64,000 bases of DNA from an uncultured Acidobacteriota bacterium (lineage in GTDB: Bacteria > Acidobacteriota > Thermoanaerobaculia > Thermoanaerobaculales > Sulfomarinibacteraceae), in NCBI GenBank assembly GCA_963727925.1, contig CAVSIS010000040.1:113936-177935 (forward strand), in the 5' to 3' direction. The notes below the pieces were generated by a model that saw only the letters and a program-made list of their open reading frames with translations, was not told the DNA's origin and searched no databases. The position numbers and the translations under genes are program-made. Below, piece after piece: positions 23,874 through 27,557 of this stretch. Within the stretch, counting starts at the first letter, position 1. Each line of letters opens with the position of its first letter.

Positions 23874-23895
23874 AACAGTATTGAGACACTGTTCA
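23874..23895. promoter_or_regulatory. palindrome GAACAGT-N8-ACTGTTC upstream of cytochrome operon promoter
   Basis: Perfect 7-bp arms about 38 bp upstream of the -35 box, inside the only clearly AT-enriched stretch of this region. Confidence 0.3.
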
Positions 23896-23932
23896 AGTTA
23901 CTGATTCTCTTGATGTTCCACTCGAAAACCCC

Positions 23933-23961
23933 TTGACAATATCCTTGCATGCCGATATGCT
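23933..23961 (+). promoter_or_regulatory. sigma-70-type promoter TTGACA-N17-TATGCT
   Basis: Consensus -35 at 23933-23938, a 17-nt spacer and a 4/6 -10 at 23956-23961. It lies about 75 nt upstream of the cytochrome c start. Confidence 0.5.
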
Positions 23962-24036
23962 CAACTTCGATCACAGACTCCGCGACAGGGTTTGCCGCGG
24001 AAGTAGCTTGTGAAGAAAGGTACAAGGAGGTCAACG

Positions 24037-24399
24037 ATGCGCACCACTCGAGTCCTCATCACCACCGTTCTGGCCGGCGTCCTGATTCTGGGCCTGGCCA
24101 ACCTGGCCACCGCCGCCAAGAAGGCAGAGGAAGGTCAGGAGCTGCTTCAAGCAGAACTGCAAGTCCTGCCACGGGCCCGACTCACCCAACGGTGAGTACA
24201 CACCCATGACGCTCATCCAGGACCAGTGGCAGCGCTTCTTCGACGAGAAGTACGTCGACACCCACTCCACGCGTGAAGGACCCCAACCACGGCGACAAGC
24301 CGGTCACTGAGGCGATCTCCCCGATCCGACCTCAAACTCATCAAGGCGTTCGCGATCGACCACGCGGCCGACTCCGAGCACCCGATGACCTGCGGCTGA
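24037..24399 (+). pseudogene. small Sec-dependent monohaem cytochrome c, three +1 frame disruptions as sequenced
   Basis: AAGGAGG precedes MRTTRVLITTVLAGVLILGLANLATAAKKAEEGQEL. The frames then step through FKQNCKSCHGPDSPNGEYTPMTLIQDQWQRFFDEKYVDTHST, VKDPNHGDKPVTEAISP and SDLKLIKAFAIDHAADSEHPMTCG. The extra bases lie near 24145, 24272 and 24324, and the net shift returns to the starting frame. Confidence 0.7.
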
Positions 24400-24420
24400 T
24401 CACGACCAAGGGAGATCAAC

Positions 24421-26077
24421 ATGCTTCGCAAGACCCTCGCCGCTGTCCTTCTGGCCCTCGTCGGCATCGCCGGCGTCGCCACCGCCCAGACCTCCGACGA
24501 GGTCACGCCAGAGCAGGTCGCCAAGCTCAAGAAGGAGCTCAGAGACCTCGAGAAGCGGGTCATGAAGAACGAGCGCAAGACCGCGCTCGACCGCATCAAC
24601 TTCATCGGCGACTTCCGCTTCGAGGCGCACTCGATCGACGCGACGATCCCCGACCACTTCGACGGCATGGCGCTGCAGCGCGCATGTGGTCGACACCCTG
24701 TTCTACGTCGGCGCCACCGGCATGCCGCCGGCGGGCCCCGAGGACGTCGGCAACCTCATCCGGGAGAACTACGGCGACTACCTGTACTTCCTCGACCACC
24801 TCACCTGGGACGGGCTCAAGCAGGCTATCGGCAGCTTCCCGCCCGAGATGCAGCAGCAGCTCATGGGCTCGCTGATGCCCGCCACCTACCGCCAGGGGTA
24901 CGACTACTCCAACTCGATCCTCTACACCAGCCGGCTGCGCCTGCAGATGGACGCCAAGGTCGCCGACGACGTCGACTTCTCGGGCCGGCTGTCGATGTAC
25001 AAGGTGTGGGGCGACTCGACCGGCGTGCAGGTCTTCAACGGCCAGCCGACCTCGATCAACATCGACGGCACCACCGCCACGGTCCCGAACTCGGACATCC
25101 TCCGGGTCGAGCGCGCCTACTTCACCTGGAAGAACATCGCGGACGCACCCATCTACCTCTCGATCGGCCGCCGCCCGTCGACCGCCGGGATCCCGCTCAA
25201 CTACCGCCAGGACGAGCCTCGCGGCGGCACGCCGATGGGCTCGCTGATCAACTACCAGTTCGACGGCATCACCTTCGGCTGGCACCTCACCGAGCAGTCG
25301 ACCTTCCGCCTCTGCTACGGGCTCGGCTACGAGTCCGGCTTCGGCAACGGCGACGTGCTCAAGCTCCCCCAGGACCGGCTCAAGGACACCAGCTTCCTCG
25401 GCATCAACTGGGACGTGCTCAACACCCCGACGACCTTCGTCCAGGCCACCGTGGCGCGCGCGTTTGACGTCACCGACGGCTTCAACGGCCTGGTCGTGCT
25501 GCCGGTCAACCCGGTCACCGGCCAGGAGGTCCTGGCGCCCGTGGTCATGCGCTACACGCCATCGGCCAACCTCGGCGACATCGACCTCGCCAGCGTCGTG
25601 CTGACCCGCCGCGACGGGCCGATCGACTGGTTCGTCAGCCTCAACTACATGAAGTCGCACCCGAACAACATCACGACCCCGTTCGGCGGCCTGTTCTCCG
25701 ATCCGTTCGACACTCCGGAGTCGCAGTCCGGCAGCATGTACTACCTCGGCCTCCGCTACAGCTTCGCCAACGACAAGACCAAGGCCGGCGTCGAGTTCAA
25801 CCACGGCTCCGAGTACTGGTTCAACTTCGCGGCCGCCGAGGATGACGTCATCGCCCCCAAGACCAACGCCCGCGGCGACGTCTGGGAGGCCTACGTCACT
25901 CACCGCCTCCGCGACCGCTTCATCGTCAAGCTCGACTACATCAACTACGCCTACGACTACTCCGGCTCGGGCTGGCACCTGGGCGCGCCCAAGAAGCTGG
26001 ACAGCACGCCGTTGCTGGGCTTCCCGACCTACAAGGACGCCTCCAAATGGATGCTCAGCATGACGGCACGGTTCTGA
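24421..26077 (+). CDS. DUF3373-like putative outer-membrane beta-barrel protein (frameshifted as sequenced)
   Basis: Signal peptide MLRKTLAAVLLALVGIAGVATA, followed by the coiled-coil segment EQVAKLKKELRDLEKRVMKNERK. The body is long, beta-strand-like and rich in Y/F/W/G, and ends in ...MTARF. One extra base at 24685 (ALQRA|t|VVDTLFYVG). My recollection of the DUF3373 family fits in length and N-terminal coiled coil. Confidence 0.7.
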
Positions 26078-26087
26078 TCGGAGGCCG

Positions 26088-27502
26088 ATGATGCGCCGCT
26101 CGATTCCCGTTCTGCTCGTCCTCGCCGGGTTCGCCCTGCCGGCGGCCGCGGCGGGGACGCCGTCCTCCCACGCCGAGTACTTCGAGCACTACGAGGGCAC
26201 CAAGACCTGTCTCGCGTGCCACGAGGACGAGGCCACCTCCTTTTTCCACTCCCAGCACTACCAGTGGCGCGGCGAAGCACCCCAGATTGTCAACGCCCAC
26301 GGTGCAGAGGCTCGGCAAGACGAAACACGATCAACGACTTCTGCACGAACCCCATGGCCAACTGGATCGGCCTCACGCGCAACTCCCGCGGTGAGGTGAT
26401 CACCCAGGGCTGCTCCAAGTGCCACGCCGGCCTCGGTCTCGTGCCGAAGCCCGAGATCAGCCGCGAGCAGCTCGAGAACATCGACTGCCTGATCTGCCAC
26501 GCCTCGGGCTACCGCCGCGACCTCTACCCCAACGACGACGGCGGCCTTTCCTGGAAGCCCATCCTGTGGAAGAACCAGGAGGGCCTCGACTCGGTGGCCA
26601 AGCGCATCTCGCTGCCGAAGCGCACCATGTGCCTGCGCTGCCACTCCGGCTCCGGCGGCGGTCCCAACTTCAAGCGCGGCGACCTCGAGTACGCCCTCGC
26701 CGACCCCGAGCCCGACTTCGACGTCCACATGGCCACCTCGGGCAACGACCTCCAGTGCGTCGGCTGCCACGCCGGCGAGGACCACCGGGTGCGTGGGCGG
26801 GGCACCGACCTATCGGGCACCGACATGCCGTCCAAGCCCCTGAGCTGCGACGCGGCCGACTGCCACGGCCCGACACCCCACAAGGCGGAGGTGCTCAACT
26901 ACCACACCGCGCGGGTGTACTGCACGACCTGCCACATCCCGACCTTCGCCAAGGACGACGCCACTGACATGGTGCGCGACTGGTCGACGCCGCACTACAA
27001 CGAGGAGGCCGACAAGTACAGCGCCACCATCACCCTCGCCAAGGACGTGACCCCGGTCTACGCCTGGTACAACGGCACCACCTGGGAGCAGCTCCCGGGT
27101 CAGCCGGTGAAGGTGCAGGCGGACGGGACGGTCGGGATGATGGTCCCGCAGGGCGCCAAGGCCGATCCCAAGGCCCGGATCTACGCCTTCAAGCTGCACC
27201 GCGCAAAGCTGCCGGTACTCGACCAGAAGAACTGGATCATCCCGATCGTGGTGGAGGAGTTCTTCGCCAACGGCAACATGGACGAAGCGGTCAAGAACGC
27301 AGCCAACGACATGTACGGCGTCTCAAACGCCAGCTACCATTGGGTGGACACCACCCGCTACATGGGTATCTTCCACGAGGTGGTACCGGCCAAGCGGGCG
27401 CTCGCCTGCCTCGACTGTCACGGTCCCGACGGCCGCCTCGACTGGAAGACACTCGGATACAAGGGCGACCCGCTCTCGGCCCTCCTGCATTCCTCGCACT
27501 GA
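26088..27502 (+). CDS. octahaem c-type cytochrome (Otr/tetrathionate-reductase-like family; frameshifted as sequenced)
   Basis: Signal peptide MMRRSIPVLLVLAGFALPAAAAG. There are seven CxxCH motifs (CLACH, CSKCH, CLICH, CLRCH, CVGCH, CTTCH, CLDCH) plus CDAADCH. Two extra bases lie near 26303 and 26325 (QIVNAHG|QRLGKTK|TINDFC). Confidence 0.85.
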
Positions 27503-27520
27503 TCTCTGCCCTCAAACCAC

Positions 27521-27557
27521 GTGCCCCGTCCGCGGCGGACGGGGCACTTCCCTTTTT
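27521..27557 (+). terminator. intrinsic terminator of cytochrome operon
   Basis: GTGCCCCGTCCG-cgg-CGGACGGGGCAC followed by TTCCCTTTTT, 19 nt after the stop. Confidence 0.75.

What the first reader, a model, noticed from the sequence alone, without database searches (positions are those of the whole stretch)
23874..27557. Porin-cytochrome-like operon: small cytochrome c, DUF3373-type barrel and octahaem cytochrome
This is a self-contained unit. It has an AT-enriched upstream region with a GAACAGT-N8-ACTGTTC palindrome, a TTGACA-N17-TATGCT promoter, three genes separated by 21 and 10 nt, and a strong terminator.

**Gene products**
1. A secreted monohaem cytochrome of about 120 aa (CKSCH).
2. 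A 551-aa protein with a signal peptide, a coiled-coil neck, an aromatic/glycine-rich beta-strand body and a terminal Phe. I recognise this as DUF3373-like, a family with no assigned function.
3. A secreted 470-aa cytochrome with eight haem sites.

**Interpretation**
The combination of periplasmic cytochrome, outer-membrane barrel and multihaem cytochrome is the logic of the MtrCAB and Geobacter porin-cytochrome conduits for extracellular electron transfer. Here, however, the barrel comes from a different, uncharacterised family, and the cytochrome is octahaem and Otr-like rather than deca- or dodecahaem.

The unit could therefore be an undescribed trans-outer-membrane electron conduit. Alternatively it could be a periplasmic octahaem reductase with a dedicated substrate porin.
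Basis: partly seen in the sequence, partly recalled or inferred. Interest (0 to 1): 0.72.

Follow-up and report, generated by a model that had tools for sequence, protein, structure and literature searches.

The report
Otr reductase operon with its porin
This is an acidobacterial copy of the three-gene otr operon known from Shewanella (small cytochrome c, DUF3373 outer-membrane porin, periplasmic octahaem reductase), so it is a largely ordinary respiratory unit and probably not a new electron conduit across the outer membrane.

Summary
Window 23873-27557 carries an AT-rich leader, a palindrome, a TTGACA-N17-TATGCT promoter, three + strand genes spaced 21 and 10 nt apart, and a strong terminator.

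After frame correction the products are:
- a 119-120 aa monohaem cytochrome c;
- a 551 aa DUF3373 protein (Pfam E=7e-110);
- a 470 aa octahaem cytochrome, homologous over its full length to Shewanella octahaem tetrathionate reductase Otr (PDB 1SP3, E=3e-59), with the active-site lysine conserved.

The trio is not undescribed. The same gene order flanks canonical Otr in Shewanella and Marinobacter. It also occurs in 67 of 70 related genome loci with enough upstream DNA, from at least seven phyla.

The DUF3373 model is a 16-strand, porin-like barrel with a periplasmic coiled coil. A large DUF3373 clade sits in housekeeping contexts with no cytochrome nearby. There is no MtrB signature, no lipoprotein cytochrome and no fused haem domain.

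The best reading is a periplasmic Otr-type reductase, probably for tetrathionate, with a dedicated cytochrome c partner and a substrate porin.

The six frame-disrupting insertions lie in a 15-26 kb cluster that also breaks metX, metY, ask, dinB and glnA. They are most likely assembly errors.

The parts
23873..23894 (+). Palindrome GAACAGT-N8-ACTGTTC in the AT-rich intergenic region, 37 nt after the stop of the upstream DUF2752 gene. Possible operator or weak hairpin; function not established.
   Evidence: It is seen in the sequence and scored as an 11-pair hairpin. It is identical in L087. In L001 it is degenerate, with the inner 5 pairs kept through one compensatory change. It is absent upstream of the operon in the other loci.
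23933..23961 (+). Sigma-70-type promoter: TTGACA, 17 nt, TATGCT.
   Evidence: It matches 10 of 12 positions, with 2 sites found against 0.2 expected from shuffles. Both hexamers are invariant in L087 and L001 while the spacer varies.
24037..24399 (+). G1: secreted monohaem cytochrome c (CKSCH) of 119-120 aa after correction. It belongs to the SO_4142-type family, which ends in DHAADSExPxTCG. In the window it is broken by three net +1 insertions near 24144, 24266-24272 and 24320-24325.
   Evidence: It passes Pfam Cytochrom_C at 28.1 bits against a 21.3 cut-off. It is 42% identical to the Shewanella neighbour of Otr and 38% to the Marinobacter one. Family-invariant residues are listed.
24421..26077 (+). 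G2: a 551-aa DUF3373 outer-membrane beta-barrel. It has a signal peptide, a periplasmic coiled-coil helix, 16 predicted strands and a C-terminal Phe. One +1 insertion lies near 24683-24686.
   Evidence: PF11853 matches at E=6.8e-110. G2 is 96% identical to the intact 551-aa P0001. The AF2 model has pLDDT 68 and pTM 0.66. Foldseek returns AlgE, OmpF, PorB and DcaP.
26088..27502 (+). G3: a 470-aa secreted octahaem cytochrome of the Otr family. It has 7 CXXCH plus one CX4CH, and Lys77 corresponds to the Otr haem-ligand Lys56. Two +1 insertions lie at 26306 and 26319.
   Evidence: PDB 1SP3 matches at E=2.6e-59 over residues 36-463. TIGR04315 scores 313 bits over 17-440 of 440 positions. Invariant residues are in alignment A1.
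27521..27557 (+). Intrinsic terminator: a 12-bp stem with 10 G-C pairs, a 3-nt loop and a T-rich tail.
   Evidence: Found by the terminator scan.

Best explanation
This is an otr-type operon: a periplasmic respiratory or detoxifying reductase module.

**Components**
- G3 is an Otr-family octahaem enzyme exported to the periplasm. It reduces a small soluble oxyanion at a lysine-ligated haem. The most likely reaction is tetrathionate to thiosulfate. Nitrite and hydroxylamine are the other substrates known in vitro for Shewanella Otr.
- G1 is a dedicated soluble monohaem cytochrome c that carries electrons between the membrane respiratory chain and Otr.
- G2 is a 16-strand outer-membrane porin of the DUF3373 family. 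It is probably trimerised through its N-terminal periplasmic coiled coil. It lets the substrate in and the product out across the outer membrane.

The three genes are transcribed from one sigma-70-type promoter to one intrinsic terminator.

**Shown here:** the homologies, the conserved gene order, the conserved catalytic residues and the porin-like fold.

**Inferred:** that G1 is the redox partner, that G2 is the substrate channel, and which substrate is used.

The frameshifts in the window are most likely consensus errors in a poorly assembled 15-26 kb stretch, not gene decay.
For: **G3 is an Otr-family enzyme**
- It aligns end to end with Otr (1SP3, E=2.6e-59).
- It keeps all eight haem sites, the GK(x)N..N.FC motif holding the lysine that corresponds to Otr Lys56, and other invariant pocket residues (A1).

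**The same trio flanks canonical Otr**
- It occurs in Shewanella eurypsychrophilus and Marinobacter hydrocarbonoclasticus.
- All three proteins are similarly diverged from those homologues: 42%, 37% and 37% identity. This points to co-inheritance of the whole trio.
- 67 of 70 genome loci with at least 2.3 kb upstream have the full trio in the same order and on the same strand. They come from Acidobacteriota, Kiritimatiellota, Krumholzibacteriota, Fibrobacterota, Gemmatimonadota, Planctomycetota and Eisenbacteria.

**G2 is porin-like**
- It passes Pfam DUF3373.
- The AF2 model has one coiled-coil helix, 16 strands, short periplasmic turns and long outer loops.
- The best structural matches are AlgE, OmpF, PorB, OmpK36 and the coiled-coil porin DcaP.
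- TCDB files DUF3373 as a putative porin family, 1.B.62 (PMC4827864).
- Clade-B DUF3373 genes stand alone next to clpA/B-type, yfiH-type and rsmB genes. That context fits a general porin scaffold.

**Link to tetrathionate**
- The qPCR primers used for the Ca. Sulfomarinibacter otr gene map into the Otr gene of L040, which carries the trio. That gene was induced 36-fold by tetrathionate (PMC8528874).

**Other support**
- A molybdoenzyme tetrathionate-reductase homologue next to an OprO/P-like porin is a precedent for a reductase paired with a porin (PMC13490349).
- Contigs from a sediment metatranscriptome of related strains cover the G1/G2 junction, G2 and G3.

**Frameshifts as errors**
- Every frame-breaking indel is a 1-nt insertion that is absent from L087 and from Illumina contigs of four runs.
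- dN/dS against L087 is 0.10 for G2 and G3 and 0.20 for G1.
- The same 15-26 kb stretch also breaks metY, metX, aspartokinase, dinB and glnA, while the rest of the window has long intact ORFs.
Against: - No experiment links any DUF3373 protein to transport, or any SO_4142-type cytochrome to Otr.
- Tetrathionate is small enough to pass general porins, so the need for a dedicated channel is unexplained.
- G3 scores below the NCBIfam curated cut-off for the Otr family (313 against 375 bits). It belongs to a distinct subfamily with CX4CH at haem 6 and an NSRG insertion, so its substrate could differ.
- The physiological substrate of Otr is itself unsettled: tetrathionate, nitrite and hydroxylamine are all reduced in vitro (PMC4484225).
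- The barrel model has only moderate confidence (pLDDT 68), and TCDB predicted 18 strands.
- The reads behind the window could not be found; the best public run holds only 20% of the sampled words. The frameshifts are therefore not proven to be errors.
Confidence: 0.68

Rival explanations
1. Porin-cytochrome conduit across the outer membrane. In this reading the DUF3373 barrel sheathes a cytochrome (Otr or G1) and passes electrons to extracellular acceptors, as MtrCAB or the Geobacter Omb-Oma-Omc complexes do.
For: - A barrel gene sits tightly between two secreted cytochrome genes, and the order is conserved in 67 of 70 loci.
- In 12 of 80 relatives the trio lies next to a decahaem cytochrome and a putative barrel gene, so these organisms do have extracellular-electron-transfer-like hardware.
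Against: - The barrel model has 16 strands and is porin-like. MtrB does not appear among the top 50 fold matches.
- There is no MtrB_PioB Pfam match at E<=0.01.
- G3 is a catalytic enzyme homologous to soluble Otr, not an MtrA-type rod. The DmsE-family model TIGR03508 scores only 38.7 bits against a 192 cut-off.
- Otr is purified without detergent as a periplasmic protein (PMC4484225).
- The operon has no lipoprotein or extracellular cytochrome, and no N-terminal lipobox cysteine.
- About 56 clade-B DUF3373 loci have no cytochrome neighbour.
Confidence: 0.05
2. Split Cyc2-like module. In this reading the small monohaem cytochrome G1 plugs the 16-strand barrel G2, like the fused cytochrome-porin Cyc2 of iron oxidisers. 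It would exchange electrons with an external donor or acceptor, and Otr would be the periplasmic sink or source.
For: - G1 and G2 are always adjacent, 21 nt apart here, and co-inherited.
- By my own recollection, Cyc2 pairs one haem with a barrel of about 16 strands.
- G1 is a distinct cytochrome family with no solved relative beyond the haem-binding helix.
Against: - None of 150 DUF3373 representatives carries a fused CXXCH domain.
- G1 has its own signal peptide and a class I N-terminal fold signature.
- Most DUF3373 clades lack a cytochrome partner.
- Similarity to Cyc2 could not be tested because no Cyc2 profile was available.
Confidence: 0.05
3. The operon is genuinely pseudogenised in this organism.
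For: There are six frame-disrupting 1-nt insertions across the three genes. As written, none of the genes can be translated in full.
Against: - The insertions belong to a regional cluster that also breaks housekeeping genes: four frame switches in glnA, plus metX, metY, ask and dinB. Genes outside 15-26 kb are intact.
- The substitution pattern shows purifying selection, with dN/dS of 0.10-0.20.
- All relatives are intact.
- There are no in-frame stop codons other than those caused by the shifts.
Confidence: 0.1
4. Same architecture but a different chemistry. The module would act on nitrogen oxyanions (nitrite or hydroxylamine reduction or detoxification), or run in reverse as a thiosulfate oxidase feeding electrons through G1 to an oxidase. 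It would not serve tetrathionate respiration.
For: - Shewanella Otr reduces nitrite and hydroxylamine efficiently in vitro (PMC4484225).
- In S. eurypsychrophilus the trio lies next to genes with flavorubredoxin and NADH:rubredoxin-reductase-type domains, which I read as norVW-like.
- A class I monohaem cytochrome c is a typical high-potential carrier.
Against: - The only in situ expression data for this subfamily show induction by tetrathionate (PMC8528874).
- No nitrogen-cycle genes neighbour the operon in the window.
Confidence: 0.2

Closest known systems
Shewanella oneidensis otr locus (SO_4142 monohaem cytochrome c, SO_4143, SO_4144 Otr; Otr structure PDB 1SP3)
   Same: - The three-gene order and strand are the same.
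- All three proteins are homologous, at 37-42% identity to the Shewanella and Marinobacter trios.
- Eight haem sites, the active-site Lys and full-length alignment to 1SP3 are shared.
- SO4142, SO4143 and otr are listed together in the oxygen-sensitive (Fnr/EtrA-type) regulon (PMC3424579).
   Different: - G3 belongs to a separate subfamily, with CX4CH instead of CXXCH at haem 6 and an inserted loop of about 12 residues containing NSRG.
- G3 scores below the TIGR04315 cut-off.
- The host is an acidobacterium-like organism with 69% GC.
- That MR-1 SO_4143 itself is a DUF3373 protein was inferred from S. eurypsychrophilus (Otr 80% identical), not tested on MR-1 directly.
Ca. Sulfomarinibacter (Thermoanaerobaculia) Otr, Flieder et al. 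2021 (PMC8528874)
   Same: It belongs to the same Otr subfamily, at 63-64% identity. The published qPCR primers map into the Otr gene of L040, which carries the same trio. It was predicted to be periplasmic and was induced 36-fold by tetrathionate.
   Different: In the passages and supplementary files searched, that paper does not mention the adjacent DUF3373 or small cytochrome genes. Its extracellular-electron-transfer candidates are a different cluster.
MtrCAB / MtoAB / PioAB and Geobacter porin-cytochrome complexes
   Same: Both have an outer-membrane barrel gene flanked by genes for secreted c-type cytochromes.
   Different: - The barrel has 16 strands, against 20-26 in those complexes (from my own knowledge).
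- There is no MtrB_PioB match.
- The multihaem partner is a globular enzyme, not a decahaem wire.
- There is no surface lipoprotein cytochrome.
Coiled-coil trimeric porins such as DcaP (Acinetobacter) and ScrY
   Same: They share an N-terminal periplasmic coiled coil followed by a 16-18 strand barrel. DcaP is among the fold matches. From my own knowledge, DcaP prefers anionic substrates.
   Different: Sequence identity is only about 11%. DUF3373 has an extra helical insert of about 70 residues after strand 1. Its oligomeric state is untested.
Ttr-type tetrathionate reductase homologue next to an OprO/P-like porin in Dissulfuribacter thermophilus (PMC13490349)
   Same: A periplasm-facing reductase for a sulfur oxyanion is encoded beside a dedicated anion-type porin.
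   Different: The enzyme is a molybdopterin enzyme rather than a multihaem one, and the porin belongs to a different family.

Membership tests
Otr family (octahaem tetrathionate reductase; TIGR04315 / PF11783 / PDB 1SP3) | Full-length sequence homology to Otr | tested here: met
   1SP3 matches at E=2.6e-59, query 36-463 against chain 17-434. PF11783 scores 88.9 bits against a 22.1 cut-off.
Otr family (octahaem tetrathionate reductase; TIGR04315 / PF11783 / PDB 1SP3) | Eight covalent haem-binding motifs | tested here: met
   There are seven CXXCH plus one CX4CH at the position of Otr haem 6. The variant motif occurs in 100 of 120 close homologues.
Otr family (octahaem tetrathionate reductase; TIGR04315 / PF11783 / PDB 1SP3) | Lysine axial ligand of the catalytic haem (Otr Lys56), lying outside any haem motif | tested here: met
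   Lys77 in GKTNTINDFC aligns with Otr GKKNSINNFC and is invariant in A1. Actual ligation cannot be shown from sequence. In the window this codon lies between the two frameshifts.
Otr family (octahaem tetrathionate reductase; TIGR04315 / PF11783 / PDB 1SP3) | Score above the curated NCBIfam cut-off | tested here: not met
   The score is 313.4 bits against a cut-off of 375, although the alignment spans 17-440 of 440 positions. G3 is therefore in a sister subfamily, not the Shewanella-type core.
Otr family (octahaem tetrathionate reductase; TIGR04315 / PF11783 / PDB 1SP3) | Tetrathionate reductase activity | not testable with these tools
   The evidence is indirect only. The Ca. Sulfomarinibacter gene of the same subfamily was induced by tetrathionate (PMC8528874; primers mapped).
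DUF3373 (PF11853; TCDB 1.B.62 putative porin) | Pfam gathering threshold | tested here: met
   The score is 368.3 bits against a 26.1 cut-off, E=6.8e-110, covering profile positions 3-409 of 409.
DUF3373 (PF11853; TCDB 1.B.62 putative porin) | Outer-membrane beta-barrel fold with signal peptide and C-terminal aromatic residue | tested here: met
   The AF2 model has 16 strands and pTM 0.66. Fold matches are porins. The signal peptide ends ...VATA/QTS and the C-terminus is ...ARF. Localisation itself was not tested.
MtrB/PioB-type porin-cytochrome barrel (PF11854) | Sequence membership | tested here: not met
   DUF3373 is the only Pfam family found for G2 at E<=0.01.
MtrB/PioB-type porin-cytochrome barrel (PF11854) | Barrel wide enough to sheath a multihaem cytochrome (20-26 strands) | tested here: not met
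   The model has 16 strands and TCDB predicts 18 (PMC4827864). The nearest folds are porins and exporters of 16-18 strands.
MtrB/PioB-type porin-cytochrome barrel (PF11854) | Adjacent MtrA/DmsE-type decahaem wire and a surface lipoprotein cytochrome | tested here: not met
   G3 scores 38.7 bits against a 192.2 cut-off for the DmsE family. No N-terminal lipobox cysteine is present in G1, G2 or G3. The window has no other multihaem ORF.
Cyc2-type fused cytochrome-porin | Haem-binding CXXCH fused to the N-terminus of the barrel | tested here: not met
   G2 has no CXXCH. None of the 150 DUF3373 representatives has a fused cytochrome domain. Sequence similarity to Cyc2 itself was not tested because no profile was available.
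Class I cytochrome c (PF00034) | N-terminal helix with a CXXCH motif; Pfam threshold | tested here: met
   The score is 28.1 bits against a 21.3 cut-off. Only the N-terminal part resembles solved cytochromes. The distal ligand is unidentified; the candidates are M57, H76, H109 and C119.

The most novel reading that the evidence does not exclude
The trio works as one complex associated with the outer membrane. The DUF3373 barrel would use its periplasmic coiled coil to dock the SO_4142-type cytochrome and Otr. Alternatively it would hold the small cytochrome in its lumen, like a split Cyc2. Either way, electrons or a bulky or insoluble sulfur substrate (polysulfide, elemental sulfur, mineral-bound species) would be handled at the cell surface rather than free in the periplasm. 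This would be a new class of porin-cytochrome module, widespread in Acidobacteriota and at least six other phyla.
Probability: 0.07. Interest if true: 0.8.

Novelty: new member of a known kind. Interest (0 to 1): 0.3.

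Why it matters
As a locus it is ordinary: another copy of the otr operon. Two modest points go beyond annotation.

1. The survey shows that cytochrome c, DUF3373 and Otr form a strictly conserved, co-inherited module from Shewanella to Acidobacteria. The papers I could search did not discuss this; only three in the library mention DUF3373 at all. The published work on the Shewanella periplasmic network states that the electron route to Otr is unknown and found only millimolar binding to STC (PMC4484225). The conserved SO_4142-type cytochrome is therefore an obvious untested candidate for the donor.

2. A dedicated porin in the operon suggests that outer-membrane passage of the true substrate is limiting. 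This could help settle what Otr does in vivo.

In addition, sediment Acidobacteriota carrying this module are implicated in cycling of sulfur intermediates (PMC8528874).

Tried and rejected
- **Palindrome as a conserved operator.** I searched the upstream regions of 69 loci. It is conserved only in the closest relative, L087, and is degenerate in L001. It was kept as a local feature of unknown role.
- **Structured 5' leader or riboswitch.** Rfam gave only sub-threshold chance hits: miRNA families on a downstream hairpin, and osmY at 25 bits against a 47-bit threshold. The leader fold is no better than shuffles, with z=0.6.
- **DUF3373 on plasmids, to get annotated context.** tblastn found no match.
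- **Finding the source reads to settle the frameshifts.** Only related strains were found, with at most 20% of words shared. Their contigs lack the insertions, but that does not prove the window's own state.
- **PDB profile search for G1.** Only the haem-binding N-terminus matched, so there is no informative structural relative.
- **A fourth conserved operon gene (quinol dehydrogenase, regulator, maturation factor).** Clustering the neighbours of 82 loci found none beyond lineage-level synteny.
- **Uniformly error-ridden window.** This was rejected, because the frame-switch map shows that the errors are regional.
- **Omp50 of Campylobacter as a characterised DUF3373 member.** TCDB lists it as a separate but related family, 1.B.60. 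Membership was not tested because I had no sequence.

Full report
**1. What is in the sequence**

- GC drops from the window mean of 69% to 39-51% at 23800-23999.
- GAACAGT-N8-ACTGTTC lies at 23873-23894.
- A TTGACA-17-TATGCT promoter-like site lies at 23933-23961. It matches 10 of 12 positions, and two such sites were found where shuffles give 0.2.
- Three + strand genes follow: G1 at 24037-24399, G2 at 24421-26077 and G3 at 26088-27502. They are spaced 21 and 10 nt apart, each behind a GGAG-type ribosome-binding site.
- A terminator with a 12-bp stem and 10 G-C pairs, plus a T tail, lies at 27521-27557.

None of the three genes is one open frame in the window. G1 needs three +1 corrections, G2 needs one and G3 needs two.

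**2. What the products are**

The frame-corrected proteins gave these results.
- G1 is a secreted monohaem class I cytochrome c of 119-120 aa with CKSCH. It passes Pfam Cytochrom_C.
- G2 is a 551-aa DUF3373 protein (E=6.8e-110). It is 96% identical over its full length to an intact metagenomic protein, P0001.
- G3 is a 470-aa octahaem cytochrome that aligns end to end with Shewanella octahaem tetrathionate reductase (PDB 1SP3, E=2.6e-59).

G3 matches the NCBIfam Otr model over 424 of its 440 positions, but at 313 bits, below the curated 375. The lysine corresponding to Otr Lys56 is invariant, as are the adjacent N..N.FC motif and several other pocket residues (A1).

G3 belongs to a distinct subfamily.
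- Haem 6 is attached through CX4CH in 100 of 120 close homologues.
- An inserted loop containing NSRG is present in 103 of 120.
- All 120 canonical Shewanella-type Otr sequences have eight CXXCH and lack the insertion.

No N-terminus carries a lipobox cysteine.

**3. The trio is the standard otr locus**

Neighbourhoods of canonical Otr proteins were looked up.
- In Shewanella eurypsychrophilus (Otr 80% identical to the crystallised protein) and in Marinobacter hydrocarbonoclasticus, Otr is preceded by a 108-109 aa cytochrome c and a 566-574 aa DUF3373 protein.
- In Malonomonas, Otr stands alone.
- The window's G1, G2 and G3 are 42%, 37% and 37% identical to the Shewanella-type trio. The whole module has therefore been inherited together.

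A scan of one genome per species returned 80 loci of the window's subfamily. Of the 70 with at least 2.3 kb upstream, 67 have cytochrome c, DUF3373 and Otr in the same order and on the same strand. They come from Acidobacteriota, Kiritimatiellota, Krumholzibacteriota, Fibrobacterota, Gemmatimonadota, Planctomycetota and Eisenbacteria. No fourth gene is consistently linked.

In S. oneidensis, SO4142, SO4143 and otr appear together in the oxygen-sensitive regulon (PMC3424579). SO_4142 is annotated as a periplasmic monohaem cytochrome c of unknown role (PMC5789149).

**4. Is the barrel a cytochrome sheath or a porin?**

The AlphaFold model of P0001 used 48 sequences and reached pLDDT 68 and pTM 0.66. 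It shows:
- a signal peptide;
- a long helix at residues 30-57, with heptad-like charge pattern;
- strand 1, then a 70-residue helical insert;
- 15 further strands, with short turns on one side and long, poorly predicted loops on the other.

This is a 16-strand barrel with both termini in the periplasm. Foldseek finds AlgE, OmpF, PorB, OmpK36, chitoporin, OmpM1 and the coiled-coil porin DcaP. MtrB is not in the top 50. There is no MtrB_PioB Pfam match.

TCDB classes DUF3373 as putative porin family 1.B.62, next to small-molecule porin families (PMC4827864). The family is modest in size, with 625 clusters at 50% identity, and no member has a fused haem domain.

It splits into clades. The Otr-linked clade contains the window's protein and the Shewanella and Marinobacter proteins. 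A metagenome scan seeded with clade B gave the following.
- About 56 clade-B loci have no Otr or multihaem neighbour. They sit beside clpA/B-type, yfiH-type and rsmB genes.
- Six more distant loci again have Otr about 0.4-0.6 kb downstream.

DUF3373 is therefore a porin scaffold, and some lineages of it have been recruited into otr operons. It is not a dedicated cytochrome sheath.

**5. Function**

Shewanella Otr is purified as a soluble periplasmic protein and reduces tetrathionate, nitrite and hydroxylamine in vitro. Its electron donor is unknown, and it binds STC only weakly, with a Kd of 1.6 mM (PMC4484225).

For the window's subfamily there is in situ evidence. The Ca. Sulfomarinibacter otr gene was induced 36-fold by tetrathionate in sediment microcosms (PMC8528874). 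The published qPCR primers map into the Otr gene of locus L040, which has the full trio: the forward primer matches exactly and the reverse primer has 3 mismatches, 193 bp apart.

Contigs from a sediment metatranscriptome of related strains cover the G1/G2 junction, G2 and G3.

I therefore read the unit as follows. Otr is the periplasmic terminal reductase. The SO_4142-type cytochrome is its dedicated electron carrier. The DUF3373 porin is the route for substrate and product across the outer membrane. The last two roles are inferences from conserved linkage and fold.

A Ttr-type tetrathionate reductase homologue next to an OprO/P-like porin is a precedent for this logic (PMC13490349).

The G1 family has an unusual, nearly invariant C-terminus, DHAADSExPxTCG. 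Its invariant residues include C119 and H76, and M57 is nearly invariant. Apart from the haem-binding helix it has no solved relative. The distal haem ligand is open, and a His/Cys haem of the kind seen in sulfur-oxidising cytochromes is a speculation worth testing.

**6. The frameshifts**

Against the closest relative, L087 (90% nucleotide identity), the window has 30 indel events in 5.5 kb. Most are single inserted bases, and they are not in homopolymers.

Illumina-derived contigs from three salt-marsh metagenomes and one metatranscriptome leave out one base at 24005, 24144, 24272, 24686, 26306 and 26319. Apart from 24005, which is in the untranslated leader, these are frame-breaking sites.

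A GC3-phase Viterbi map shows frame switches clustered between about 15 and 26.3 kb. There they also split metY, metX, aspartokinase and dinB, and split glnA four times. Elsewhere in the window, ORFs of 1-3.5 kb are intact.

With the insertions removed, dN/dS against L087 is 0.10 for G2 and G3 and 0.20 for G1.

Regional assembly error is the most economical explanation. Genuine decay cannot be excluded, because the source reads were not found.

**7. Regulatory elements**

The -35 and -10 hexamers, the ribosome-binding site and the block just downstream of the palindrome are invariant in L087 and L001. The palindrome is identical in L087. In L001 only its inner five pairs survive, through one compensatory change. 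It is absent upstream of the operon in the other loci. It may be a local operator, or a weak terminator hairpin for the upstream DUF2752 gene. No RNA family matches.

**8. Verdict**

The locus is a new member of a known kind, an otr operon of the CX4CH subfamily in an acidobacterium-like genome.

Its residual interest lies in what the conserved trio implies for Otr biology. It points to a candidate electron donor and a dedicated porin, neither of which has been tested.

Noticed in passing
window 14950-26330: Frame switches cluster in this stretch. They split metY (about 16223), metX (about 16733), aspartokinase (about 17799) and dinB (about 19702). They split glnA four times (21169-22683, minus strand) and also break the otr operon. 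Genes outside the stretch are intact. This looks like a locally poor consensus in the assembly.
   Followed up: partly
L001 6666-9709; L002 11535-14590; also L054 8759-9670, L058 9634-11550, L043 11607-12008: In 12 of 80 relatives, mostly Thermoanaerobaculia and Sulfomarinibacteraceae, the otr trio is followed by three further genes. These are a roughly 300-aa decahaem cytochrome (Paired_CXXCH and an MtrC/F-like domain), a 575-640 aa protein with no Pfam match, and a 123-133 aa OMP-like protein. This is a better candidate for a true porin-cytochrome module. It is absent from the window.
   Followed up: partly
window 27551-27601: A second, perfect inverted repeat with arms of about 17 bp (CCCGGTTTGGGCTCGCC / GGCGAGCCCAAACCGGG) lies immediately after the operon terminator. 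It is not repeated elsewhere in the window. It produced the spurious miRNA hits in Rfam.
   Followed up: partly
window 24340-24399 (G1 C-terminus); alignment A5: The small cytochrome family ends in a nearly invariant DHAADSExPxTCG with an invariant final Cys, conserved from Shewanella to Acidobacteria. Its role is unknown: it could be a haem ligand, a thiol chemistry site or a docking element.
   Followed up: partly
window 26838-26858 (CDAADCH) and about 26362-26400 (NSRGEV loop): A CX4CH motif at haem 6 and an inserted NSRG loop define a large Otr subfamily. It falls below the NCBIfam Otr cut-off, and many of its members carry no informative name from their sources.
   Followed up: yes
L083 493-3134: In Shewanella eurypsychrophilus the otr trio lies next to divergently oriented genes with flavorubredoxin and rubredoxin-reductase-type domains, which look like norVW. 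This hints at a nitrosative-stress context for Otr in that genome.
   Followed up: no
L089, L092, L104, L116, L138 (around position 6000 in each): Clade-B DUF3373 porin genes repeatedly sit beside a ClpA/B-type AAA ATPase gene upstream, or yfiH-type (Cu-oxidase_4) and rsmB genes downstream. That is a housekeeping context with no cytochromes.
   Followed up: partly
window 28596-33899: Downstream of the operon are a secreted DUF2202 (ferritin-like) protein, a CHASE2 sensor histidine kinase, a sigma-54-dependent response regulator and a further ORF at 33147-33899 that I did not scan. No link to the otr operon is evident, because the relatives differ in this region.
   Followed up: no
window 38687-39886 (minus strand): This is the only other CXXCH-bearing ORF in the window. 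Its C-terminal part has a weak match to the Planctomycete cytochrome c domain PSCyt1.
   Followed up: no
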